In this document: positions 13,276 to 52,871 of the stretch, in pieces
Layout: every line of letters starts with the position of its first letter
How positions within the stretch are numbered: the stretch's first letter is position 1
Virus record (IMG/VR): IMGVR_UViG_3300028992_000036
DNA length: 64,000 bases
Direction: 5' to 3' (one strand)
Source: a virus
Taxonomy: Duplodnaviria > Heunggongvirae > Uroviricota > Caudoviricetes
Notes under the pieces: model-generated
The model's input: the letters and a program-made list of their open reading frames with translations, nothing else
Database searches by the model: none
Told to the model about the DNA's origin: nothing
Translations under genes and position numbers: made by a program

Positions 13276-13940
13276 GCAGCCATCTCCCCGGAAGAGATCT
13301 TCTCCGCATATGCCACAAATGCGTCTACCCCGCTTTCTCCCGTCATTTCTTCCATGTGGGCAAGCAAATCACCAACAACAATGGCAGAGCCAGCAGGGAG
13401 CGTTTTAAAGCCCAATACGTCGACAACACGTACTTCTTCCGCTGCAACTTCACGACTGATCTCGGTGTGTTCATCCTTCTGTCGTTTAGTTTCTTCGCCA
13501 AGATCGATAACTAGCGAGTCGGTGTCCATTTCTTCTGTCATACTGCCAACGAGAACATTCAACTCACGCTCTTCAAAGCCGAAAACCTCGATATCGTCCA
13601 GAACAAGCGACTCAAGCTCTTTCTGTAGCTTAATTGCATCGTAATCAATGCTGGCAAGTCGGTTATCTTCAAGGCGCTTCGCACGAACCTCGTCATCACT
13701 GAGATCATCGCGAACAATAACCGGTACGCGCTCAAGTCCAGCAAAAATTGCAGCCTCACGGCGGCCGTGGCCAGTAATAATTACGTCGTTCTTATCGACC
13801 GTAATTGGCTGGTCAAATCCGCGCTTTTTAATGGCTGCGGCTAGATCTCGGATCTGCTGTTCATCATGCTTTTTGGCATTCATCTCATAGGGAATAAGAT
13901 CTGCCGGGTCGCGATATACGATTTCAAACTTTTTGGTCAT
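13272..13940 (-). CDS. ParB-like nuclease domain protein
   Basis: ParB/Srx N-terminal motif ITGHGRREAA; AAGGAG RBS before ATG 13940; coupled to neighbours. Confidence 0.6.
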   Translation of the reverse strand: MTKKFEIVYRDPADLIPYEMNAKKHDEQQIRDLAAAIKKRGFDQPITVDKNDVIITGHGRREAAIFAGLERVPVIVRDDLSDDEVRAKRLEDNRLASIDYDAIKLQKELESLVLDDIEVFGFEERELNVLVGSMTEEMDTDSLVIDLGEETKRQKDEHTEISREVAAEEVRVVDVLGFKTLPAGSAIVVGDLLAHMEEMTGESGVDAFVAYAEKISSGEMAA

Positions 13941-14620
13941 TACATACGCTCCTTGTAGTAGTCGACCAGCCACACCAGAGCCTCACCAGCGTTCTCCATT
14001 TCATTACCGGTGTTAATAGCCTGCTCTTTGATGATGTTTTTTATGGTTTCTGCAACACGATCTGACGCATCGAAAGTTACTTTGAAGCGCATGGTCTGAT
14101 GTTCCGCACCCACACGTTCGGTTTTCTCTCGTTTGTCGGTATCGACAGGCTCATCACTACCACGAGACAACGCCTCCAGTGCTTCAAGGTCGATTGCCGC
14201 CTCTTTTGCTAAAACCATCGAGATTTCGTCGTCATACGGGGCGATTTCAGACAGTTGATAGTCAAGTTCTGACTGAATTTCTTCAATGAAGCGTTGCAAT
14301 GCGATTTGGTCGTCTTCACCGTATCGCTCGTTGTCCACCAGTGACATCTGTTTAGCTACGACATCGCTAATTTTGCCCACAGAAAGCACCGGAACCGTTG
14401 AAATTCCTTGCTCAATAGCAGCACGCCAGCGATGTTCGCCGCCGAGGATTTCAAAAAATCCATCTTCAAGTTCACGAGCCAAAATTGGCTTAAAAAAGCC
14501 CAATTTTTCGATAGAACCTTTCAGTTTTTCAAAATTCTGCGCACCAACCGAATTGGTGTTCCAGGTATTCGGGCGAAGGTTGGCAACATCAACCTGCAAA
14601 ATCGTGATTTTTACATCCAT
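13940..14620 (-). CDS. ParB-like nuclease domain protein
   Basis: Motif LGGEHRWRAA; start ambiguous (ATG 14620 or GTG 14638). Confidence 0.6.
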   Translation of the reverse strand: MDVKITILQVDVANLRPNTWNTNSVGAQNFEKLKGSIEKLGFFKPILARELEDGFFEILGGEHRWRAAIEQGISTVPVLSVGKISDVVAKQMSLVDNERYGEDDQIALQRFIEEIQSELDYQLSEIAPYDDEISMVLAKEAAIDLEALEALSRGSDEPVDTDKREKTERVGAEHQTMRFKVTFDASDRVAETIKNIIKEQAINTGNEMENAGEALVWLVDYYKERM

Positions 14621-14702
14621 TTTATTGCTACAATCCACTAAGTAATCACTTACTTATTATAATAGCCAAATAACATACAAAAGGCACTAAGGAAAGAGGT
14701 TT

Positions 14703-16262
14703 ATGACTGTTCGGATTGTATCTAACGCAGTAAATGCGCTTATTTCTGGCGCAGATGACAAGGTAAAGCAACTGGTGCAGCAAATGTTGAGCTACGAAGT
14801 CGAGACTGGCGACTGGAAGGGCACAAGCACGATGTTCAACTGGAGTAAAAACTCGTTCCCTGCTGGCTTTGCCAAGCCTGTAGCGGCGAACTTGAACAAG
14901 GCGGGCATCAAATGTGTTCATATCCGCAAAGACAAAGCCCCGGCGCTTGGTAAACCAAATCCGGCGGTTAACCCATTCCCATACAATCCTGATTATGCGT
15001 ATCAGGATCAGACTGTGGAAACACTGGTTCGAGAGGGAATGATGATTGCGCAGATCGCTACTGGTGGCGGGAAATCTAACGTTGCCTGCAAAGCAGCTGC
15101 ACGTATCGGTCGAATGACATTATTTTTAACAACCCGCTCTGTTCTGATGTTTCAAATGGCCGAAAACTTCCAGAGATCCATCGACTACCGCGCCGAAAAT
15201 GGCGAACCGTGGTTAAAAGACCAAAAGGTTGGAGTCATTGGCTCGGGTGAGTTCCAGGTATCACGACATATCAACGTCGCTACAGTTCAAACTCTTGCAA
15301 GTTTCCTCGAAGAACCACCACGCGATGCAACACCAGATAAGAAAAGCTACCACCTCAAACGTCGGGAGTTGGTGAAACGCTTCCTTTCAAGTGTCTCTCT
15401 TCTTATTCTGGAAGAGGCGCATGAGTCTTCAGGCTCAAATTTCTATGACATCGCCAGATTATGTGTGAACGCAGACTATCGTCTGGCGCTTACAGCCACG
15501 CCGTTCATGAAGGATTCGACGGAAGCCAACATGCGCCTGATGGCGGTGGCCGGGCGAATTGAAATTAAAGTCACAGAAAAGTACCTGATTGATCGAGGCA
15601 TTCTGGCAAAGCCGTACTTCCTTTATCATAAAGTTGCCTACAAGCCAGACGAGGCCAGAATCAAGGCCGAACTTGCCAACAAACACCTCAATTTTAGAGT
15701 TGGTATGAGCACCGCCTACCAAAAGGCTTATCAGTTGGGGATCGTGTATAATTTGGGACGTAACGAGGCCATTGTTCGCGAAGCATTGCTCTATAAGCAA
15801 CATTCTCTCAATTGTATGACTCTGGTTCGTCTTAAACGCCACGGGCAAATCCTGATGGAAATGATGAAAGAGTCCGGCCTTAGAGTTGACTTCATCTATG
15901 GGGAATCTAACCAGGCGACAAGGCAAGCAAAGCTGAACAGTTTAGCGTCTGGAGAAATAGATGTTTTAATAGGCTCGACTATTCTGGATGTCGGTGTTGA
16001 TGTGCCAAGCGTTGGTGCGGTCATTCTTGCTGGTGGTGGGAAAGCAGAAGTTGAAATGAGGCAGCGTGTCGGTCGTGGCTTACGAGCCAAAAAAAATCAG
16101 GCAAACGTGTGTTTTATCACTGATTTCATTGACATTAGCAACAAATACCTGTTGTCTCACTCTTATGAGCGAAAACACATCATCGACACCACACCTGGCT
16201 TTGCAGAAGGTGTATTGCCTATTGATGGAGCATTCGATTTTGGAGTTCTGAAACGAGATTAG
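14703..16262 (+). CDS. SF2 DNA helicase (ResIII/DEAH-like)
   Basis: Motif I ATGGGKS, motif II LILEEAH, C-terminal helicase motifs; AAGGAAAGAGG RBS. Confidence 0.7.
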   Translation: MTVRIVSNAVNALISGADDKVKQLVQQMLSYEVETGDWKGTSTMFNWSKNSFPAGFAKPVAANLNKAGIKCVHIRKDKAPALGKPNPAVNPFPYNPDYAYQDQTVETLVREGMMIAQIATGGGKSNVACKAAARIGRMTLFLTTRSVLMFQMAENFQRSIDYRAENGEPWLKDQKVGVIGSGEFQVSRHINVATVQTLASFLEEPPRDATPDKKSYHLKRRELVKRFLSSVSLLILEEAHESSGSNFYDIARLCVNADYRLALTATPFMKDSTEANMRLMAVAGRIEIKVTEKYLIDRGILAKPYFLYHKVAYKPDEARIKAELANKHLNFRVGMSTAYQKAYQLGIVYNLGRNEAIVREALLYKQHSLNCMTLVRLKRHGQILMEMMKESGLRVDFIYGESNQATRQAKLNSLASGEIDVLIGSTILDVGVDVPSVGAVILAGGGKAEVEMRQRVGRGLRAKKNQANVCFITDFIDISNKYLLSHSYERKHIIDTTPGFAEGVLPIDGAFDFGVLKRD

Positions 16263-16569: not shown

Positions 16570-17034
16570 ATGAAGTCTCCCATACTGTTCACTTTCTGTT
16601 CTAAAACTATCATGAAATACTCGCTTCTCCCTCTACTAACGTTACCAGTGTTGATGCTTACCGCGTGCCAATCACGCCCAATATCAATCCATGACGCCAA
16701 ACCAGCACCGCAGGCCAAAGTGTTCAAGTATCAAAGCGCAGCGCCAGCTACGTTGGTGGTAATGAGAGACACAGGTTTTGTAGGAGCTGGATGTGATGCT
16801 TCCATTTTCATCAACGGCGAAACTGTCGCAAAACTGGCTACAGGCGAAAAAGCGACTTTCCATTTAAATGCCGGAGAATTAATTGTGGGTGCATCTCTTG
16901 AAGGTGCAGGTTTATGTGCTCTAAACCCCGCTCGTCAAGAGCGAGAAACGACTCTGAAGAATGGAGACACAAAAGCGTTCAGGGTGTTCACCAGCAATTC
17001 TGGTGACATCGACATTCTGCCAACAACTCTGTGA
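16570..17034 (+). CDS. lipoprotein, putative
   Basis: Signal with lipobox LTAC (..LPVLMLTACQ); GGGAGA RBS; alternative start at 16612. Confidence 0.5.
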   Translation: MKSPILFTFCSKTIMKYSLLPLLTLPVLMLTACQSRPISIHDAKPAPQAKVFKYQSAAPATLVVMRDTGFVGAGCDASIFINGETVAKLATGEKATFHLNAGELIVGASLEGAGLCALNPARQERETTLKNGDTKAFRVFTSNSGDIDILPTTL

Positions 17035-17038
17035 TGAC

Positions 17039-17563
17039 ATGACAACCAAAGATATTACCTACGGTATCCAAGCTGAACTCTGGCCGCGAGATTACACTAA
17101 CGTTGAAAAACTACTGATGTTCTGGCGCAGAGAACAAATTCCTGTAAGGGTCACTCTCGAAGATGGCCAGGCGTTTTGCATGTACGTTTATGGCCTCATG
17201 CCATCTCGTAACAAAGTTGACCTTTGCCCAGCCCCTTTTGACAAAGAAAATCGTATAAGGCTCCCACTTGAACGCATTAGTACAATTGAATCAGGTGTGG
17301 TTGACAGTATCGCTCACGATTTCAAAGGTCGACTAACAGTTCACCCTGATTATGTCGATAATCGGCCATCACGCCGCGATTTTTTTGCAATTTGCAACCA
17401 AGCCTACAAAGCAAACAAATCTATAAGGGTGTACATGGCGGATGGCCGTGAAATTGAGGGGGTGTCAGCAGGCGCAGATGCTTGTCAGGTTACACTACGT
17501 GTCGAGAACGGTAGAAAAATAGTTGTTTTGTTCGATTGGGTTGAACGAATTTTGCCTTTTTGA
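17039..17563 (+). CDS. hypothetical protein
   Basis: 174-aa ORF from ATG 17039, directly after the lipoprotein stop. Confidence 0.4.
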   Translation: MTTKDITYGIQAELWPRDYTNVEKLLMFWRREQIPVRVTLEDGQAFCMYVYGLMPSRNKVDLCPAPFDKENRIRLPLERISTIESGVVDSIAHDFKGRLTVHPDYVDNRPSRRDFFAICNQAYKANKSIRVYMADGREIEGVSAGADACQVTLRVENGRKIVVLFDWVERILPF

Positions 17564-18158: not shown

Positions 18159-18809
18159 ATGGCTAACATTATCATTTCTAAAAAATCCATCATTGAAGCT
18201 GCTTCCATTGTATCCGATGAACTGCGCGAAAAAGCAGATCTGGCAACTCAAACATATAACGAACATTATAAAAATGGTACGCACACTAAAGCAGACAAAG
18301 CAAATATGCAAGCTGCGACCACTAAACTTGCTTACTTCATCAACAACGTCGTAAACGCAGTAGAAGACGAAAAATTATGCTCTGTTTTCTACTATGCGAT
18401 TAAAGCAAGCAAACAAGCGCCAGAAGTATTTTTCCGTGATGCAATGACTAATAGTTATTCTCTGGAAAAACTGGTTTATCTGGTTAAATCAATTAAATCT
18501 GGTAAATGCGTTTATTCCATCGCTGATATGTCAGGATCTCGTGTATTCGCTTTAATCGATATGATTAACGACGAGATCGACACGTTCACCAATGGCGCTG
18601 TTTTCGATTTAATGAATGAAGCTAAAAAAGCGTGCGAAATTAAATTGGACGCTGGCTATACTCAAGCCAACCAGTTGATCAATCTTTGCGAACGTCTTGG
18701 ACTTGTTGAGAAAGTCAAAGGAATGGGAAGCGCAAAAGCTGGTACACAGCAATATCGCTTTATCAAGAATGATTTCTACAATTATTTAGCTGATGCTTTT
18801 AAAGCGTAA
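18159..18809 (+). CDS. hypothetical protein in AT-rich moron
   Basis: 216 aa; AAGGAAAAA RBS; markedly lower GC than flanks; followed by a hairpin at 18819-18839. Confidence 0.5.
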   Translation: MANIIISKKSIIEAASIVSDELREKADLATQTYNEHYKNGTHTKADKANMQAATTKLAYFINNVVNAVEDEKLCSVFYYAIKASKQAPEVFFRDAMTNSYSLEKLVYLVKSIKSGKCVYSIADMSGSRVFALIDMINDEIDTFTNGAVFDLMNEAKKACEIKLDAGYTQANQLINLCERLGLVEKVKGMGSAKAGTQQYRFIKNDFYNYLADAFKA

Positions 18810-19084: not shown

Positions 19085-19315
19085 ATGTTTGTTCTTATCG
19101 CTGGCGTTAACGTCCATAATGAATATTATGTTAATCGCATCGCTGGGATCGCTGGTTACGCTGGGCGCGCAGTCGAGCTTATAGATGAAACGACGCGCAA
19201 AATTGACTTATTGAGCGACCAGGAGCGAAAAAAAGCAGACGTGAACGACGCTGATATATTTTTAATGTTAAAAGCGTTTGTAGAAATGGGATTTAAAATC
19301 AGTTTACACAAATAA
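19085..19315 (+). CDS. small hypothetical protein
   Basis: 76 aa; AAGGAG RBS 7 nt upstream. Confidence 0.4.
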   Translation: MFVLIAGVNVHNEYYVNRIAGIAGYAGRAVELIDETTRKIDLLSDQERKKADVNDADIFLMLKAFVEMGFKISLHK

Positions 19316-19320
19316 AATCG

Positions 19321-19346
19321 AGCGCCCACTATGGGCGCTTTTTTTC
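19321..19346 (+). terminator. Rho-independent terminator
   Basis: AGCGCCCACTATGGGCGCT hairpin + TTTTTTT; same hairpin (no T-run) at 18819-18839. Confidence 0.6.
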
Positions 19347-19367
19347 GTTTCCAATACACCTACCATA

Positions 19368-19392
19368 ACGCGCCATCATTGGCGCGTTTTTA
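19368..19392 (+). terminator. second hairpin terminator
   Basis: AACGCGCCA-tcat-TGGCGCGTT followed by TTTTT. Confidence 0.45.
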
Positions 19393-19804
19393 TTGTCTTT
19401 AACTCACTCCAACAACATAAAAATAAGCGCCAAAATAACGCCATAGACGCGCTTTTATATCCTTACCAGTACATGCCCATTACTTAACACATTAACGCGC
19501 TTAAAACGCATTATATTGCGCTATAGAGTATGGTTAATCATTGGCTTTTAGTCTTGCTATGTGATCCGCGTTTATTTGTCGGTGCGGATCGGCATTTTGT
19601 TTTGTTCTGTATCCGCTCGCGTATTATGTGCGCGTGATTTTTCACATAATCACACCACTTAATCACGTATGTGATTATGCTACGAAAGAAATCTGGATGT
19701 CTCAGGCGACGAAAGTCATCATAATTTCCCCCGCTCACCTGTCCGACAACCGCTGGTTGGATTCCACCAGCTTCCCGATGTTTTTTCTACACAAAGGCGA
19801 ATGC

Positions 19805-19921
19805 AGCCGTTTCCCGAAAAAATCCTGGCCGTTCCCCGTCGGCTCATGAATACGTTCCTCGCCGTTTCTGAAAATTTCCCTGCGGCAGCTGGTGGCTATA
19901 GAGAAAGGGCCGTTTCTGGCC
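19805..19921. repeat. iteron-like direct repeats (GCCGTT(T)CCC(C)GAA family), cluster 1
   Basis: 4-5 copies at ~20-22 bp spacing in a convergent intergenic region. Confidence 0.45.
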
Positions 19922-19931
19922 CTCTTCTCAG

Positions 19932-20414
19932 TTACACGCCATCAAGGATGTGGATGCGGTTGCTTGCGTATACATTCAGCATAAAGTTAGCGCAAAACAG
20001 TTTCCATGTATCAACGCCAGCGGTATACGTAATGTTTTTGCATTTAATTGCATTGTTGGCGATCCGCATCCCCTGCGATACTGCTTCATCGTCGGAAAAT
20101 TTGAACGACGATTGAGTTTTAATCCAGACAGAAATCTGCGTAGCGAACTCAATCAGCTTGGACTGGCAGAATCGCCCGGAGCGCACCGGAAAGACGAACG
20201 TTCCGAATCCAGAATTTACCACATATGCTTTCTCAAATACCCGCGAGTAACGACGATTGCCAATGATGTCGCGTGCAATAATGCATTTTTCTTGTGCTGA
20301 CAGTTCTACCGTCTCATTGTCGCGCCATGCACCAAGTACTCGTTTTTCAATGTCAGAGAACGTTACAGCGATATTGCCATGTGCGGGTGCGTTTACAGTA
20401 GCGATAAAATTCAT
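19932..20414 (-). CDS. hypothetical early protein
   Basis: 160 aa; AAGGA RBS; motif A upstream at 20435-20467. Confidence 0.5.
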   Translation of the reverse strand: MNFIATVNAPAHGNIAVTFSDIEKRVLGAWRDNETVELSAQEKCIIARDIIGNRRYSRVFEKAYVVNSGFGTFVFPVRSGRFCQSKLIEFATQISVWIKTQSSFKFSDDEAVSQGMRIANNAIKCKNITYTAGVDTWKLFCANFMLNVYASNRIHILDGV

Positions 20415-20764
20415 GATTAATTCCTTATCGTAAATAACAAATTGTTTTCTTGTTGGTGTTAATTATCGTTGTACGAATAAGGCGTCAAAGTGGAAAGTTG
20501 CGGTAGCCGGACGGGAACAGGTGGGTTTGTCGGTTGCCTGGAGGTAAGAGGTTGGTGTTATTAGCCTGAGGGAAACAGGATGGTCATTTAAGACCACCAA
20601 TGCTGGTGGCCTTAATAATTATCGCCCGATTACGCTAAGGATCTTTTCCTCAACTGATTTGTTGTTGCGACTAAACTGCCTTGCGTATCTGATGACAGAA
20701 GAGGCGTTTTGCTTTCTGACCATCTCGGCTCTTTCCTTCAGGCGTTTCTTGAAATCGCCCATAT

Positions 20765-21139
20765 TTACCACCAGGCGCAGAAGGTCAGTCTGTTATTGTG
20801 AAAGTCGTGGTTCTTAATCAGATCTTCCACAAGCTCTTTCAACTGCCCCACATCATGCCAGTAACCTTCGTCGTACTCCTGACTGCCGAAGAAAAAACCT
20901 TCCCGAGTAGGCAAGTACTCTTCGCAATTGCTTTCGTTTATGTGCATCAAATGAGCTTTCAGAAGACAAATGTCATTCATCGTTAATTCTAAAAGCTCAC
21001 AATTTTCGACTTCACCTACGTTGCGCTCCATCCACCCAACGAGCGCATTGAACTTACGGAAGTAAGCAACCTGCTTTCTGGATGCCTCGTTATTCAGATC
21101 GTTTTTAGGCTGTGTCTCGATATAGATATCAAGTCCCAT
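20765..21139 (-). CDS. small acidic hypothetical early protein
   Basis: ATG 21139 with AAGGAAA RBS; motif A core at 21196-21210. Confidence 0.5.
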   Translation of the reverse strand: MGLDIYIETQPKNDLNNEASRKQVAYFRKFNALVGWMERNVGEVENCELLELTMNDICLLKAHLMHINESNCEEYLPTREGFFFGSQEYDEGYWHDVGQLKELVEDLIKNHDFHNNRLTFCAWW

Positions 21140-21256
21140 GATGGTTTCCTTATTAACTTGCTTCAGTAAAATCATTTTCACAAATCAGATAAGGCAGAAA
21201 ACAAATTGTTATCGGGCTTAATAAAATGGCGCGGTTTACGCGCCATTTAAAGAGGA

Positions 21257-21652
21257 TTAAGCGAATACGCTTTCAGGGATTAAGGTGTCGGCAGGAATGC
21301 CAGAGGTAATGCGCAGGCCGTACTGACCAATCCAGGTAGTGTTGGTATTCAGGCTGGAGGCGAATACGGTGTTAACCATATTCATCATGGTTTCAAACAC
21401 CTCTTCATCAACCTGGCGGAAGTAGTTCTCGATTTTCAGCAGCAGCGGGTCAGTTGCATCGAGAATGGACTGGTATTGAGTCGCGTACTCGCCGCCGGAG
21501 GCATCACCTTTACGCACGATCGTACTGGCCTGGACTTCGGCACCAGTTTCGGTGTTGTACGTAACAACGGTAATTTTTGCCACATTCTTACCTTCGGCGG
21601 TTTCAGAGGCATAGTAAACATCAACTGTCAGTTTTTCGCGTTTAACGGTCAT
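21257..21652 (-). CDS. hypothetical protein
   Basis: 131 aa; GGAGAG RBS; preceded by motif B (21695-21716) and a terminator. Confidence 0.5.
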   Translation of the reverse strand: MTVKREKLTVDVYYASETAEGKNVAKITVVTYNTETGAEVQASTIVRKGDASGGEYATQYQSILDATDPLLLKIENYFRQVDEEVFETMMNMVNTVFASSLNTNTTWIGQYGLRITSGIPADTLIPESVFA

Positions 21653-21716
21653 TTCACTCTCCGTAGTGTCTTGATTATTTTTCTATTTTATAATCGTAGG
21701 TATGTACTTACAATAC

Positions 21717-21744
21717 AAAAAAGCCCCGTAAGGATGGCGGGGCT
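21717..21744 (-). terminator. Rho-independent terminator
   Basis: GCCCCG-taaggatgg-CGGGGC hairpin followed by TTTTTT on the minus strand. Confidence 0.5.
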
Positions 21745-21778
21745 GTCGTACGGTCGACTAATTACCACTTGCACATTA

Positions 21779-22090
21779 TCAGGCTATTGCCATCACTGAT
21801 GCTCTCTGAATTTCTTGCTGGGCCACGCGGTTAACTTCCATCAAAGCCAGTTCGAGCTGATGTTCCGGCCACATTCTTTGAAATGCCATCCAGCCTTTTC
21901 CACGCTGGCGACGAACATTCATTACATAACGAGTAAAGGTGTTTTTATCGAAAGACACCGCTGTTTCACGGAACAGACGAATAGAGGTTCCATTGGCAAC
22001 GATGTCCAGCAAAGTTAATTGAGCAACCAGCGCAGGCTTCTCTTTTCTCTTCTGGTCTTTGTCCAGACCAAGAACCAATGATTTTTTCAT
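21779..22090 (-). CDS. small basic hypothetical early protein
   Basis: ATG 22090 with GGAG RBS; motif A at 22102-22135. Confidence 0.45.
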   Translation of the reverse strand: MKKSLVLGLDKDQKRKEKPALVAQLTLLDIVANGTSIRLFRETAVSFDKNTFTRYVMNVRRQRGKGWMAFQRMWPEHQLELALMEVNRVAQQEIQRASVMAIA

Positions 22091-22244
22091 CACAACTCCG
22101 TAAACAACTTGTTTTCTCAATGGCGTAAATAATACCAGTAAGAAAACGGCTACAAAGCATATTGATCAGGTGTATGAGCGATATGCAGGTTCTTCCCTGC
22201 GGCTACAGATGAAGTTAAGCCAGCATTGCTGGCTTTGGTTGGGT

Positions 22245-22574
22245 TTACTCGAATACTTCAAGAAACTCCTGAACGTCCCAATGCTGGACGAGGTGAAGAT
22301 AGACCTTAGAAATCACGTCATTTTCGCTATCGCATGTGAAGTAGTACTTCTGGCTGCGGTTGTATGTGTCCACACAAAATTCGCTCATATCCATAAAGTC
22401 AGCATCTTCACCCATGTCGCAAATCATCAAAGCAGGTGCATCATCACGAGTCATCAGCTCCAGCACCCATCTTGAATTAATCAGAGTGGAAGACCAACCT
22501 TCCAGCTCATAGAACTGGTCAAACTCTTTTTGAGTTAATTTCTTGATTTGGTTGATGTCGATATTTGCAAACAT
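22245..22574 (-). CDS. small highly acidic hypothetical early protein
   Basis: ATG 22574 with AAGGA RBS; motif A directly upstream (22586-22620); D/E-rich composition. Confidence 0.5.
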   Translation of the reverse strand: MFANIDINQIKKLTQKEFDQFYELEGWSSTLINSRWVLELMTRDDAPALMICDMGEDADFMDMSEFCVDTYNRSQKYYFTCDSENDVISKVYLHLVQHWDVQEFLEVFE

Positions 22575-22929
22575 AAAGCAATCCTTAAACAACATGTTTT
22601 CTTGATGGTGTTATTATCGCAATAACGCACAGGCGAAAAAGGATTTTATTCCGGTGAATATGGTTTTGGCAGTGAGTTTTCAGGTTCAGTACCGAGTATA
22701 CTTTTTACATTATTCTGATTTAGTGGCCGAAGGTGGCTGGTGGGCAGAATAATCCTCTCCCCGAAAACCTACTGAAATCGATTGTGACCCGTTGGCTGTC
22801 TGGCACAATTACGCTGTAGCTGGGCATTCAGAGGGAATCCAGCGGTAAGCAAGTCCGCCTACGTGAGCGCCTCTCTTCTTCCCGCACATTACAGGTGGGT
22901 AGCCGCAACTCTCCCTCTCGCTATACCGG

Positions 22930-23075
22930 TACGCCGCCGTTCCTGAACCGGCATCGAGCCTTTTCCCGAAATCCACACAGGCAACTCGACCGTTTCCCTG
23001 AAAACCTCCAGCCGTTCCCCGAAGGCAACCCAGCCGTTTCTGTAGCGGGATGCAACCTTTTCCCTGTATGGACCG
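22930..23075. repeat. iteron-like direct repeats (CCGTT(T)CCC(T)GAA family), cluster 2
   Basis: About six copies at ~21-bp phase; same family as 19805-19921. Confidence 0.45.
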
Positions 23076-24136
23076 AAGGCTGACCGTAGGGGTGTTACGG
23101 GGGATAAAATCAGGAGTTGAATAAATACGAAAAAGGAGGCGACACCCCTCCTTCCCTCCCCACTTATACATACCTGGCTTCTTCGCTATACATGTTGTGT
23201 TTTATCTGTCTCAACCTCTCTATAGGCGTTAATGCTCACTCCTTCCAGAATGTTCTATACGGCAACTATTTCTGTTGGTGAATTGGGTGTGTTGTTCTCT
23301 CTGTCGGTGTATGTGGTTTCGTTCGTTTTGCGGTGGTTCTTCTATGGGGTGTTCTCGTCGTTTTGGTGATTGTTCTTCTCCGTGTATGGAGTAATGGCAG
23401 GTGGGCGATTCCTTTCGTTGTTGTGTTTGAGTTGTTTGTCTGGAGTGTGTGAAAGGCTTTTGCAGTTATTCGTGTATTGGGTAATGGCATTTCCCGTGAT
23501 TGTTGTGTTTCGTGTCTTTTGGGATTGAGAGAAACCTTGCGGTTACAGGCTTCGTTGGGGTTTCAGTGATTCTGGTGTTCTTCGCTGTTTGGGGAATGGC
23601 GTGTCGTGGGTATCGCGCGTATGAATGTTTTCGGATTGCCTGTGAAAGTTAGGTTGGTTGTCCGGTAGCCTGGGGAGAAGAGGTGGGTCTTTTCGGTAGC
23701 CTGCCATAAAGAGGTTGGTTGTTTTTGGAAATGGCATTTGTGTTATTTAGTTGTTTTGTTATGCCTGAAAATAAGTTGTTTATATGGTTGTGTAACGCAA
23801 CGGGAGCGATTTTGAGCGTGTGTTTTTGTTGGTAGTATGTTGGGTCGTCTGTGGTGAAAATTGGACGCTGTGGCGCTGTCTGCTGCGTAGAGTTACGGGT
23901 ATAAGCAGTGATGTGTGAAAACGTCAATTTTTTAGACCAAATCGGGTGAAAGCGTTGATGTTTCGTTGATCTGTTATTCAGTTGTTTTCTTGATTGTATA
24001 AACAACTATAACTTATTGATATTTAAGGATGTGATTGCGGGTATGGAAGAAGAGTAGTGGCGATCAACGGATTCTTATAGAAAAGAATCAAATTGTGACC
24101 GCCATTATCAACTGATTGATTTGTTTACTTGTGTAG

Positions 24137-24535
24137 TCAGTTCTCGAAATGAATAGGGTCAACGTAATGCCGCTCACCGCTTTTACCATTACACAGCACT
24201 GTAACTTTCGCCTTTTCACTCCAGGCTGAGTATAGAAAGTTCCCATCAGGTTGAACATGGTAACGAGAGAAGTAAACATCGCCGACTGAGGCGTCGAACA
24301 TGTTCCTATCTTTTTCACTTTGGGCAAGCGAGATGGATATCACCGAATTCCCATTTGGGGAAACGATTTTAAATTTATTCCCTATATCCATAACAATATT
24401 GTAACCAGGTAATTGCTTGTGTGTTTCCGGATCTATTTTCATGCATCGTGGGTACACGATAGTGTTAGGCTCTTCAACTGGCGTGGCATTAGCAGAAAGC
24501 ACAAAAAATATTAGTGCCAATGGTGCATATTTCAT
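24137..24535 (-). CDS. small secreted protein, putative
   Basis: Signal peptide MKYAPLALIFFVLSANA; GAGGGA RBS; 132 aa; low GC. Confidence 0.5.
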   Translation of the reverse strand: MKYAPLALIFFVLSANATPVEEPNTIVYPRCMKIDPETHKQLPGYNIVMDIGNKFKIVSPNGNSVISISLAQSEKDRNMFDASVGDVYFSRYHVQPDGNFLYSAWSEKAKVTVLCNGKSGERHYVDPIHFEN

Positions 24536-52570: not shown

Positions 52571-52769
52571 ATGTCATTTTTCTGTGATTGTTAGCCGAGG
52601 CAACGATAACCCACCAGGTGCGCCGAAGGTAGTAAATGCCTGTTTTAATTATTCACATATCCACAGGATAGATCCTAATAAAGAGATCCATAGATAGATC
52701 CTTATATAGATCAAATAAGATCCCCGATCGCTGTAAGCCGCGCCACGACTGGTCTGAAGTCATGTTCAT

Positions 52770-52871
52770 GTATGCTGTCAGCGGTAATTGATAGTCTGTC
52801 AGCGGTTCACCGTATGCTGCCAACTGTTTTTGGTATTCTGTCAGCGGCAAATCAAGTATGCTGTCAGCGGT
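52770..52871. repeat. replication iterons, upstream set (5 copies, ~21-22 bp phase)
   Basis: (G)TATGCTGTCAGCGGT-type direct repeats at 52770, 52791, 52811, 52832, 52856. Confidence 0.7.

What the first reader, a model, noticed from the sequence alone, without database searches (positions are those of the whole stretch)
19316..19931. Convergent intergenic region dense in hairpins, inverted repeats and the same iteron family
Between the end of the plus-strand moron and the end of the minus-strand early cassette lie two terminators, GCGC-rich hairpins, an inverted repeat CACATAATCACA / TGTGATTATG (19645-19676), an 11-bp-stem hairpin at the 19932 stop, and 4-5 GCCGTTTCCCGAA-type repeats (19805-19921). 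The same iteron family recurs 3 kb away, so both clusters bracket the early cassette.
Basis: seen in the sequence. Interest (0 to 1): 0.55.

Follow-up and report, generated by a model that had tools for sequence, protein, structure and literature searches.

The report
Conserved phased repeat arrays, phage-plasmid
An unannotated 616-base gap in an SSU5/pHCM2/pMT1-type phage-plasmid holds terminators and a small array of helically phased 'GCCGTTTCCC' repeats that recurs 3 kb away, most likely docking sites on the DNA for an unidentified protein; it is conserved across many enterobacterial plasmids but its function is untested.

Summary
The window is an E. coli SSU5/pHCM2/pMT1-family phage-plasmid. 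Positions 19316-19931 are an unannotated convergent gap kept at about 600-680 bp in relatives from Salmonella, Yersinia, Klebsiella, Citrobacter, Enterobacter and Cronobacter.

The gap is non-coding: it has no codon periodicity. It contains:
- two strong tandem plus-strand terminators;
- a GCGC-rich variable middle;
- three to four GCCGTTYC repeats spaced 22 and 33-34 bp apart;
- the minus-strand terminator of the adjacent 160-aa gene.

A second array of six repeats (spacing 22/31/22/22/22) lies at 22936-23064 in the same orientation. The two arrays align significantly (0 of 2000 shuffles). The motif clusters nowhere else in the 112-kb plasmid.

The repeat block is less foldable than shuffled sequence on both strands, shows no covariation and matches no Rfam family. 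I therefore read it as a phased protein-binding DNA array, like iterons, rather than an RNA.

The binding protein is not identified. Origin, looping or silencing roles are inference only. The repeats are a new variant of a known kind, of moderate interest.

The parts
19320..19350 (+). Intrinsic terminator T1 (AGCGCCCACTATGGGCGC followed by a T-run), ending the plus-strand gene block.
   Evidence: Found by the terminator scan. Folding of 19316-19400 gives z -6.2. The stem is invariant in 10 relatives. It is present in three copies in the distant relative L095.
19367..19397 (+). Second tandem intrinsic terminator T2 (ACGCGCCA-loop-TGGCGCGT followed by a T-run).
   Evidence: The stem is nearly invariant while the loop varies among relatives.
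19400..19700 (.). Variable, GCGC/CGCG-rich non-coding middle segment. It contains a GATC-bearing inverted repeat (19562-19591), a small hairpin (19618-19634), one DnaA-box-like TTTTTCACA (19638-19646) and the subtype-specific inverted repeat 19645-19654 / 19670-19679.
   Evidence: GCGC occurs 9 times against 1.34 expected. Folding of 19555-19650 gives z -2.8. A GATC pair about 24-26 bp apart is kept in 17 of 24 non-redundant relatives. TTWTNCACA is not enriched in the window. There is no 3-base periodicity.
19764..19771 (-). Chi octamer (GCTGGTGG on the minus strand), to the left of the repeat array.
   Evidence: A minus-strand Chi lies within 520 bp to the left of repeat 1 in 64 of 69 distinct family sequences. 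Its offset differs by subtype (-42, -63, -87).
19806..19870 (+). Repeat array, cluster 1: GCCGTTTCCC (19806), GCCGTTCCCC (19828) and GCCGTTTCTG (19861), spaced 22 and 33 bp.
   Evidence: The spacing of 22 then 33/34 is conserved across the family. Core and spacing are kept where the spacer sequence changes (L090). The CCGTTTCCC core is also kept in L095, whose 160-aa protein is 51% identical. The block is unstructured as RNA, z +1.3 and +1.9.
19877..19895 (+). TTTCCCTGCGG repeat variant followed by a plus-strand Chi octamer (19888-19895).
   Evidence: TTCCCTGCGG-AGCTGGTGG is invariant in alignment A1. A plus-strand Chi lies at +81 to +84 from repeat 1 in most of the 56 of 69 family sequences that carry one within 130 bp.
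19901..19929 (-). Intrinsic terminator T6 of the 160-aa gene (19932-20414, minus strand). Its loop and stem contain a fourth GCCGTTTC copy (19909).
   Evidence: MFE -23.2 kcal/mol, z -3.0. Fourteen sequence variants all keep a minus-strand hairpin of -18 to -27 kcal/mol through paired changes such as GGGCC/GGCCC against GGGGC/GCCCC. The minus strand is more stable than the plus strand in 13 of the 14.
22936..23064 (+). Repeat array, cluster 2: six copies (GCCGTTCCTG, GCCTTTTCCC, ACCGTTTCCC, GCCGTTCCCC, GCCGTTTCTG, ACCTTTTCCC) spaced 22, 31, 22, 22, 22. It is paralogous to cluster 1.
   Evidence: The alignment to cluster 1 is significant. No consensus RNA structure was found. The overlapping ORFs (22809-23171 minus, 22895-23083 plus) are not annotated in RefSeq.
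23130..23156 (-). Minus-strand intrinsic terminator immediately upstream (in minus sense) of cluster 2. This mirrors the position of T6 relative to cluster 1.
   Evidence: Found by the terminator scan. Conserved across the family.

Best explanation
The conserved part of the gap is a cis-acting DNA element. It is a short array of direct repeats with an approximately 12-bp core (yCyrGCCGTTTCCCrA), placed on one face of the helix at spacings of 22 and 33-34 bp, and it serves as a cooperative docking platform for a sequence-specific DNA-binding protein.

A larger paralogous array of six repeats lies 1.4-3.9 kb away in the same orientation, on the far side of a cassette of small genes. Each array sits just past a minus-strand terminator. 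Cluster 1 is also shielded from plus-strand transcription by two tandem terminators. This is what one expects for a nucleoprotein complex that transcription must not sweep away.

What is shown: the repeats are real and paralogous, they are phased, they are conserved across the family beyond the neighbouring proteins, they are non-coding, and they lack RNA structure.

What is inferred:
- that a protein binds them;
- that the same protein binds both arrays and can bridge them, by looping or handcuffing as at P1 incC/incA, R6K or P4 ori/crr;
- that the outcome is control of the bracketed cassette or of a replication or other DNA transaction of the phage lytic cycle rather than of plasmid maintenance.

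The rest of the gap is ordinary transcription punctuation (three terminators) plus a poorly conserved GCGC-rich spacer.
For: - Motif clustering: 7 of 9 GCCGTTYC copies in 64 kb fall in two clusters on the same strand, with no other cluster in the 112-kb plasmid.
- Paralogy: the alignment of the two clusters scores 39 against 16.7 +/- 2.4 for shuffles, 0 of 2000.
- Phasing: across 24 and 23 non-redundant relatives, adjacent spacings are 22 (82 times), 31 (16), 33/34 (19) and 44 (4), all near multiples of about 11 bp. Exceptions: 48 bp (7), from the repeat-3 to repeat-4 step (repeat 4 is not counted as phased, paragraph 7 of the full report), plus single odd values (21, 23, 53, 66).
- Information content sits in about 12 bp of each 22-bp unit.
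- Core and spacing persist when the spacer sequence changes (L090). The core also persists in L095, where the flanking 160-aa protein is only 51% identical.
- Conservation of the block (0.85-0.92) is at or near the top of the range for the adjacent coding sequence (0.74-0.93).
- There is no codon periodicity: 0.22/0.19/0.18 against 0.25/0.07/0.11 in the neighbouring gene.
- RNA evidence is negative. There is no Rfam hit. RNAalifold finds only the terminators. The block folds worse than shuffles on both strands, z +1.3 and +1.9.
- Both arrays lie directly after minus-strand terminators.
Against: - No binding protein was identified.
  - The plasmid Rep has unrelated iterons.
  - The three conserved neighbours (103, 160 and 216 aa) have no Pfam domain.
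  - No solved homologue was found by sequence for the 160- and 216-aa families.
- Phasing near multiples of 11 could in principle also suit a Rho loading site on plus-strand RNA.
- The fourth copy, inside the terminator, is out of phase (46-48 bp), so it may be coincidental.
- Nothing here demonstrates binding, looping or any phenotype.
- pMT1 keeps cluster 1 but has lost cluster 2, so the pair is not needed for plasmid maintenance.
Confidence: 0.5

Rival explanations
1. The gap is a replication origin, for example the lytic-cycle origin of the phage. The repeats would be initiator iterons, the adjacent AT/GCGC-rich segment with GATC sites and a DnaA-box-like sequence would be the unwinding and host-factor region, and cluster 2 would be an auxiliary or enhancer site as in P4 ori/crr. 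This is a specific sub-case of the best explanation.
For: - The layout runs terminators, AT/GCGC-rich segment, GATC pair, TTTTTCACA, then phased repeats.
- In L095 the same place holds an array of about nine tandem 8-bp units and three GATC within 35 bp.
- A pair of Chi sites faces inward on the two sides of the repeats in 55 of 69 family sequences.
- The element encodes its own replisome genes and RNase H but has no assigned lytic origin.
Against: - No initiator-like gene is adjacent.
- DnaA boxes are not enriched, and the one present is degenerate in most relatives.
- The GATC count is not above expectation.
- The T-A and keto skew minima lie at about 54 kb, next to the plasmid Rep origin. 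The G-C minimum at 14.7 kb coincides with a flip in gene orientation.
- A Chi polarity switch at the gap, seen post hoc in this plasmid, is not reproduced in pHCM2 (permutation 1478 of 5000).
Confidence: 0.2
2. The arrays are centromere-like or silencing sites for a partition-type protein: a ParB_N-domain protein encoded about 5 kb to the left, or the small partner of the plasmid's ParA-like ATPase. The model is parC of R1 or parC1/parC2 of pB171, which are phased direct repeats in two clusters.
For: - The anatomy is phased direct repeats in two clusters.
- Two ParB_N proteins and an ABC-type ATPase are conserved at window positions about 13.9-15 kb.
Against: - The arrays do not flank or adjoin any par operon. 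The ParA-like ATPase gene is tens of kb away.
- No test of binding was possible.
Confidence: 0.1
3. The repeat block acts as RNA. One version is an unstructured, C-rich plus-strand Rho-loading (rut) site that stops antisense transcription into the cassette. The other is a minus-strand GGA-rich protein sponge of the CsrB type.
For: - The block is unstructured on both strands.
- The plus strand is pyrimidine- and C-rich, with YC motifs about every 11 nt.
- The minus strand carries five GGA motifs, some as AGGGA (sequence).
Against: - Two strong terminators already block plus-strand entry, and no plus-strand promoter is predicted in the gap.
- On the minus strand both arrays lie after terminators.
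- A 10-nt core including GCCG is conserved far beyond what rut or CsrA sites require.
- There are no consistent hairpin-loop GGA sites and no covariation.
- No sRNA was reported in the homologous pMT1 gap.
Confidence: 0.1
4. The similarity is only a relic of an old segmental duplication or a decayed gene, with no present function beyond the terminators.
For: - The alignment between the clusters extends about 17 bp upstream of the first repeat.
- Other short segments are also duplicated between the two neighbourhoods: the 31-nt D1 repeats and the promoter-like elements.
Against: - The core and spacing are kept across genera where flanking proteins have diverged to 51-70% identity and where spacers have changed.
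- Conservation of the block is at or near the top of the range for the adjacent coding sequence.
- There is no codon periodicity.
Confidence: 0.07

Closest known systems
Iteron arrays of theta-type plasmid and phage replicons that have a second, distant array (P1 incC/incA flanking repA; F ori2 incB/incC flanking repE; R6K gamma with alpha/beta; P4 ori and crr). This comparison rests on my own knowledge.
   Same: - Direct repeats have a conserved core in units of about 22 bp and are phased on one helical face.
- There are two clusters of the same family, a few kb apart in direct orientation, bracketing genes.
- The arrays are insulated from transcription.
   Different: - No recognisable initiator gene lies between or beside the arrays.
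- The plasmid's own Rep is 30 kb away and uses different iterons.
- AT-rich unwinding-element and DnaA-box features are weak or subtype-specific.
- Origin activity is untested.
Centromere repeat arrays of type Ib/II partition systems (R1 parC; pB171 parC1/parC2). This comparison rests on my own knowledge.
   Same: Short direct repeats at multiples of about 11 bp, arranged in two clusters, which bind a small dimeric protein cooperatively.
   Different: The arrays are not adjacent to a par operon. The bracketed genes show no ParA, ParM or ParR signatures.
Canonical intrinsic terminators and Chi (GCTGGTGG) sites.
   Same: T1, T2 and T6 are textbook GC hairpins with a U-tract. The octamers at 19764 (minus strand) and 19888 (plus strand) are exact Chi sequences.
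   Different: These features explain the flanks of the gap but not the repeat block. The inward-facing Chi pair around the repeats is conserved, yet its role is unknown.

Membership tests
Iteron-type replication origin or copy-control locus | Three or more direct repeats of about 17-22 bp with a conserved core, in helical phase. | tested here: met
   Cluster 1 is spaced 22, then 33/34. Cluster 2 is spaced 22/31/22/22/22. The core is about 12 bp. All of this is conserved across the family.
Iteron-type replication origin or copy-control locus | A cognate initiator (Rep) gene adjacent to or between the arrays, or the same repeats at the plasmid's known ori. | tested here: not met
   The Rep (RepB family) gene is at about 51.4-52.7 kb and has unrelated 21-bp iterons at 52766-52871. 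Adjacent genes have no Rep-like domain or fold. No GCCGTTTCCC cluster lies near rep.
Iteron-type replication origin or copy-control locus | An adjacent AT-rich unwinding element with DnaA boxes or other host-factor sites. | tested here: inconclusive
   There is one TTTTTCACA at 19638, but the pattern is not enriched (5 found, 7.5 expected in the window). It is degenerate in relatives. A GATC pair is kept in 17 of 24 sequences, but the count is not above chance.
Iteron-type replication origin or copy-control locus | Initiator binding and origin or incompatibility activity. | not testable with these tools
   This requires EMSA or footprinting, origin cloning, incompatibility tests or marker-frequency analysis.
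Plasmid centromere (parC/parS-type repeat array) | A repeat array next to a partition operon whose adaptor protein binds it. | tested here: not met
   The ParA-like ATPase gene lies elsewhere on the plasmid. The ParB_N genes are about 5 kb away, with other genes in between. Binding could not be tested.
Structured non-coding RNA or small RNA | A match to a known family, or a conserved secondary structure with covariation and above-background stability. | tested here: not met
   There are no Rfam hits at gathering thresholds; the 19200-20000 E-value search gave only sub-threshold matches (E >= 0.17, bits far below gathering) on the terminator/left part, and the 22500-24200 search none. RNAalifold finds only the terminators. 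The repeat block gives z +1.3 and +1.9. Y. pestis sRNA-seq reports no sRNA there.
Protein-coding gene or pseudogene | Three-base periodicity of substitutions and a conserved reading frame. | tested here: not met
   Variability by phase is 0.22/0.19/0.18 in the gap and 0.20/0.21/0.21 in the 19696-19849 ORF, against 0.25/0.07/0.11 in the 160-aa gene. That ORF is frameshifted or interrupted by stops in relatives.
Intrinsic (Rho-independent) terminator | A GC-rich hairpin followed by a U-tract, on the strand of the upstream gene, maintained by compensatory changes. | tested here: met
   T1 and T2. T6: where 14 variants all fold.

The most novel reading that the evidence does not exclude
The two repeat arrays may belong to one previously undescribed module conserved across SSU5/pHCM2-type phage-plasmids. 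The other parts would be the adjacent, highly conserved 0.9-kb non-coding stretch (23160-24010, minus strand A+C-rich, ending at its own terminator) and the two orphan proteins always found between the arrays (about 103 aa and 160 aa).

One possibility is a lytic-cycle origin or replication switch that uses a new type of initiator and a long unstructured RNA. Another is a DNA-looping switch that gates early genes. Either way, a large family of clinically common plasmids, including pHCM2 and pMT1, would carry a second, unrecognised cis-acting control locus.
Probability: 0.15. Interest if true: 0.75.

Novelty: new variant of a known kind. Interest (0 to 1): 0.42.

Why it matters
SSU5/pHCM2/pMT1-type phage-plasmids are widespread in clinical E. 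coli, Klebsiella, Enterobacter and Salmonella, and pMT1 is a Y. pestis virulence plasmid. A distant DNA search with the gap found matches in 770 plasmid records.

In the eleven RefSeq, GenBank and PLSDB records I inspected, no feature is listed in this gap. A roughly 1.4-1.6-kb stretch at the corresponding position is likewise empty in most of the RefSeq/PLSDB records inspected, while the Cyrano and PhiR41_1 phage records call small ORFs there.

If the arrays are binding sites for a plasmid- or phage-encoded factor, they mark a second cis-acting control locus separate from the known Rep origin. That locus would be relevant to copy-number control, incompatibility, the lysis-lysogeny switch and engineering of these elements. 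It would also give a direct handle, by DNA pull-down, for assigning function to conserved orphan proteins. If the arrays prove inert, the gap is just well-conserved transcription punctuation.

Tried and rejected
- **Small protein.** The 51-73-aa plus-strand ORF (19628/19696-19849) and the 42-aa minus-strand ORF are rejected. They have no periodicity, and relatives carry frameshifts or stops.
- **Known RNA family.** None reached a gathering threshold; an E <= 10 search of the gap (19200-20000) gave only sub-threshold matches (E >= 0.17), and an E <= 1 search of the cluster-2 region gave none.
- **Consensus RNA structure.** For the gap and for cluster 2, on both strands, only the terminators emerge. 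A candidate GNRA-like hairpin near 19708 is weak and ambiguous.
- **Minus-strand sRNA at 19418-19505.** This would run from the predicted TTAACC-16-TATAAT promoter to a weak hairpin. The fold gives z -0.14 and the promoter is not conserved.
- **RepA iterons.** They are a different sequence family.
- **Identifying the binding protein.**
  - Pfam and PHROGs annotate the neighbours only as families of unknown function.
  - Profile searches of the 160- and 216-aa families against PDB sequences found nothing.
  - A profile search of the 216-aa family against 1.84 billion representatives found only 23 relatives and no informative Pfam hit.
- **Origin inferred from skews.**
  - The G-C minimum is confounded by gene orientation.
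  - The T-A and keto minima sit near the Rep origin.
  - The junction check of my composite plasmid failed, so whole-plasmid numbers are approximate.
- **Chi polarity switch at the gap.** It appeared as 9:3 against 3:9 in this plasmid, chosen post hoc, and was not reproduced in pHCM2.
- **Literature.** No paper in the library describes these repeats. Y. pestis sRNAs on pMT1 map elsewhere. The LF82/Cyrano transcriptome gives only gene-level values.

Full report
**1. Identity and context**

The window is 100% identical over the 1.7-kb query to E. coli plasmid pRHB17-C18_2 (CP057685.1). It is 97-98.5% identical to Escherichia phages CMS-2020a, PhiR41_1 and Cyrano, so it is an SSU5/pHCM2/pMT1-type phage-plasmid.

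Positions 19316-19931 lie between a plus-strand 76-aa gene (19085-19315) and a minus-strand 160-aa gene (19932-20414). No feature is annotated there in the PLSDB table of the GenBank record, in RefSeq PGAP or in the phage records.

A distant DNA search finds the gap in 770 plasmid records from Klebsiella, Escherichia, Enterobacter, Yersinia (pMT1), Salmonella (pHCM2), Citrobacter and Cronobacter. In nine loci that I fetched, the gap between the two flanking genes is about 590-660 bp.

**2. The observation**

- The two plus-strand terminators are very strong (z -6.2), and their stems are invariant or nearly so across ten relatives.
- The hairpin at the stop codon is the minus-strand terminator of the 160-aa gene.
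- Fourteen sequence variants of that terminator all keep a hairpin of -18 to -27 kcal/mol through paired changes. The minus strand is the more stable strand in 13 of the 14.
- The left half of the gap is GCGC/CGCG-rich (P about 1e-5).
- The 10-bp inverted repeat at 19645-19679 exists only in the window's subtype.

**3. The repeats are real, paralogous and confined to two places**

- GCCGTTYC occurs 9 times in 64 kb. Four copies lie in 19806-19916 and three in 22936-23040, all on the plus strand.
- Allowing one mismatch shows six copies in cluster 2.
- A weight-matrix scan of the window and of the other 48 kb of the plasmid finds no other cluster.
- The two clusters align over 50 columns with score 39. 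Dinucleotide shuffles give 16.7 +/- 2.4, with 0 of 2000 reaching 39. This is the best match to cluster 1 in the whole window.

**4. Family-wide anatomy**

I collected 77 IMG/VR loci, the plasmid loci, and one distant relative, L095, whose 160-aa protein is 51% identical.

- Cluster 1 always shows spacing 22 then 33/34. Cluster 2 shows 22/31/22/22/22.
- Over non-redundant sets, adjacent spacings are 22 (82 times), 31 (16), 33/34 (19) and 44 (4), all near multiples of about 11 bp; a 48-bp step (7 times) comes from the out-of-phase fourth copy (paragraph 7), and 21, 23, 53 and 66 occur once or twice.
- Information content is concentrated in about 12 bp of each 22-bp unit.
- In L090 the spacer sequences differ but the core and the 22/33 spacing persist.
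- In L095 the CCGTTTCCC core is unchanged in both clusters.
- The distance between the clusters varies from about 1.4 kb (L087) to about 3.9 kb (L042), and their orientation is always direct.
- In the shortest versions only two genes lie between the arrays: an approximately 103-aa gene and the 160-aa gene.
- pMT1 retains cluster 1 but has lost cluster 2 and its neighbourhood to an IS1541-associated deletion.

**5. Non-coding, and not a structured RNA**

Substitutions show no 3-base periodicity in the gap (0.22/0.19/0.18) or in the small plus-strand ORF (0.20/0.21/0.21). The adjacent 160-aa gene shows 0.25/0.07/0.11.

Conservation of the repeat block (0.85-0.92) is at or near the top of the range for the adjacent coding sequence (0.74-0.93), and only the spacer between repeats 2 and 3 drops (0.74).

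- No Rfam family reaches its gathering score in the window, and lenient searches of 19200-20000 and 22500-24200 give only sub-threshold or no matches.
- RNAalifold on 24 and 23 diverse sequences recovers only the terminators, on either strand.
- The repeat block folds worse than shuffled sequence on both strands, z +1.3 and +1.9.
- A Y. pestis sRNA-seq study lists two pMT1 sRNAs, both elsewhere on the plasmid.

**6. Interpretation**

Several properties point the same way: direct repeats with a conserved core, spacings at integer numbers of helical turns, spacers that tolerate change, strict orientation, absence of RNA structure, and insulation from transcription. Each array lies just after a minus-strand terminator, and cluster 1 also lies behind two plus-strand terminators. 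Together these are the signature of a duplex-DNA protein-binding array, that is, iteron-like sites.

Two arrays of one family a few kb apart resemble P1 incC/incA, F incB/incC, R6K and P4 ori/crr, where one protein bridges distant arrays. That comparison rests on my own knowledge. Binding, bridging and the biological outcome are inferences.

**7. What it is not, and what could not be settled**

- The plasmid's Rep is 30 kb away and has different 21-bp iterons, so the RepA link is unsupported.
- None of the conserved neighbours (103, 160 and 216 aa) could be assigned a DNA-binding fold or family.
- Evidence for an origin is weak.
  - There is one degenerate DnaA-like box.
  - A GATC pair is conserved in 17 of 24 sequences but is not enriched.
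  - Base skews point to the Rep origin or to gene orientation.
- A post-hoc Chi polarity switch at the gap in this plasmid is not reproduced in pHCM2.
- Chi sites are nonetheless over-represented overall: 13 against 1.7 expected.
- The cassette is Chi-dense: 4 sites in 3 kb here and 7 in 2.6 kb in pHCM2.
- An inward-facing Chi pair flanks repeats 1-3 in 55 of 69 family sequences. The left member sits at subtype-specific positions. I cannot explain this.
- The fourth repeat, inside the terminator, is out of helical phase (46-48 bp) and may be incidental.

**8. Verdict**

The element is best filed as an iteron-like, phased protein-binding DNA array, duplicated on both sides of a small-gene cassette. 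It is a new variant of a known kind whose partner protein and function are unknown. The remainder of the gap is terminators and a variable spacer.

Interest is moderate. The element is unannotated in a clinically widespread plasmid family and is readily testable. Nothing yet shows that it does more than bind a regulator.

Noticed in passing
window 23160-24010 (context 22586-24130): This is a roughly 0.9-kb unannotated stretch with extreme strand asymmetry. The plus strand is G+T-rich (GC skew about +0.45, AT skew about -0.5), so the minus strand is A+C-rich.

- It is the most conserved segment of the neighbourhood (0.8-0.95 across 23 relatives).
- It shows no codon periodicity (0.133/0.133/0.132) and no unusual folding (z -1.4 and +1.2).
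- It ends at a minus-strand terminator (23156-23130) just before cluster 2.
- Cyrano annotates ORFs here (CYRAN_103/104) that are near background expression in lysogeny.

It could be a long unstructured RNA rich in ARN triplets, or a DNA element.
   Followed up: partly
window 20436-20490, 21196-21215, 22103-22157, 22588-22642, 23971-24000: A shared promoter-proximal element lies upstream of each cassette gene. On the minus strand it reads GATAAT/TATTAT, then about 12 nt, then GAAAACAAnTTGTT, which contains an AACAA-TTGTT palindrome. A copy also lies at the far end of the A+C-rich region. This suggests one repressor or operator co-regulating individually promoted genes.
   Followed up: no
window 19764-22743; pHCM2 (L096) 13752-16247: Chi (GCTGGTGG) is over-represented plasmid-wide: 13 against 1.7 expected in the window, and 11 against 1.1 in the rest of the plasmid. 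It is especially dense in the cassette, with 4 sites in 3 kb here and 7 in 2.6 kb in pHCM2. Most of these lie on the strand opposite the genes. An inward-facing pair flanks repeats 1-3 in 55 of 69 relatives.
   Followed up: partly
window 16961-17563 (+): The protein annotated as 'transcriptional regulator' is an FljA-family protein (PF03614, E 2.5e-84) with a weak Hfq-like match (E 1e-3). FljA is known as an mRNA-binding translational repressor (my own knowledge). The gene is conserved in all relatives examined.
   Followed up: no
window 20501-20589 and 23663-23724: Five copies of a roughly 30-nt repeat (CGGTAGCCTGGGGAGAAGAGGTGGGTCTTTT-like) are split between two places: the region upstream of the 160-aa gene and the A+C-rich region. 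This is a second duplicated segment linking the two neighbourhoods.
   Followed up: no
window 52766-52871: The plasmid replicon's own iterons are five copies of about 21 bp (GTATGCTGTCAGCGG core), immediately downstream of the RepB-family rep gene. T-A and keto skew minima fall nearby at about 54 kb.
   Followed up: partly
L095 6732-6803 and 7026-7146 (distant relative; Logan SRR23468752): In the homologous gap of a relative whose 160-aa protein is 51% identical, there is an array of about nine tandem 8-bp units (GCyrTTTA), and three GATC within 35 bp lie next to the array. The T1 terminator hairpin is present three times.
   Followed up: no
window 18159-18809 (+), 19932-20414 (-), 21779-22090 (-): Three orphan proteins are restricted to this phage-plasmid family.

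- The 216-aa protein is unusually conserved: most relatives from other genera are 82-87% identical, against mostly 65-81% for the 160-aa protein. It has only 23 relatives among 1.84 billion representatives.
- The 160-aa model (pLDDT 85) has no fold match.
- The 103-aa model is four beta-strands plus a long helix.

   Followed up: partly
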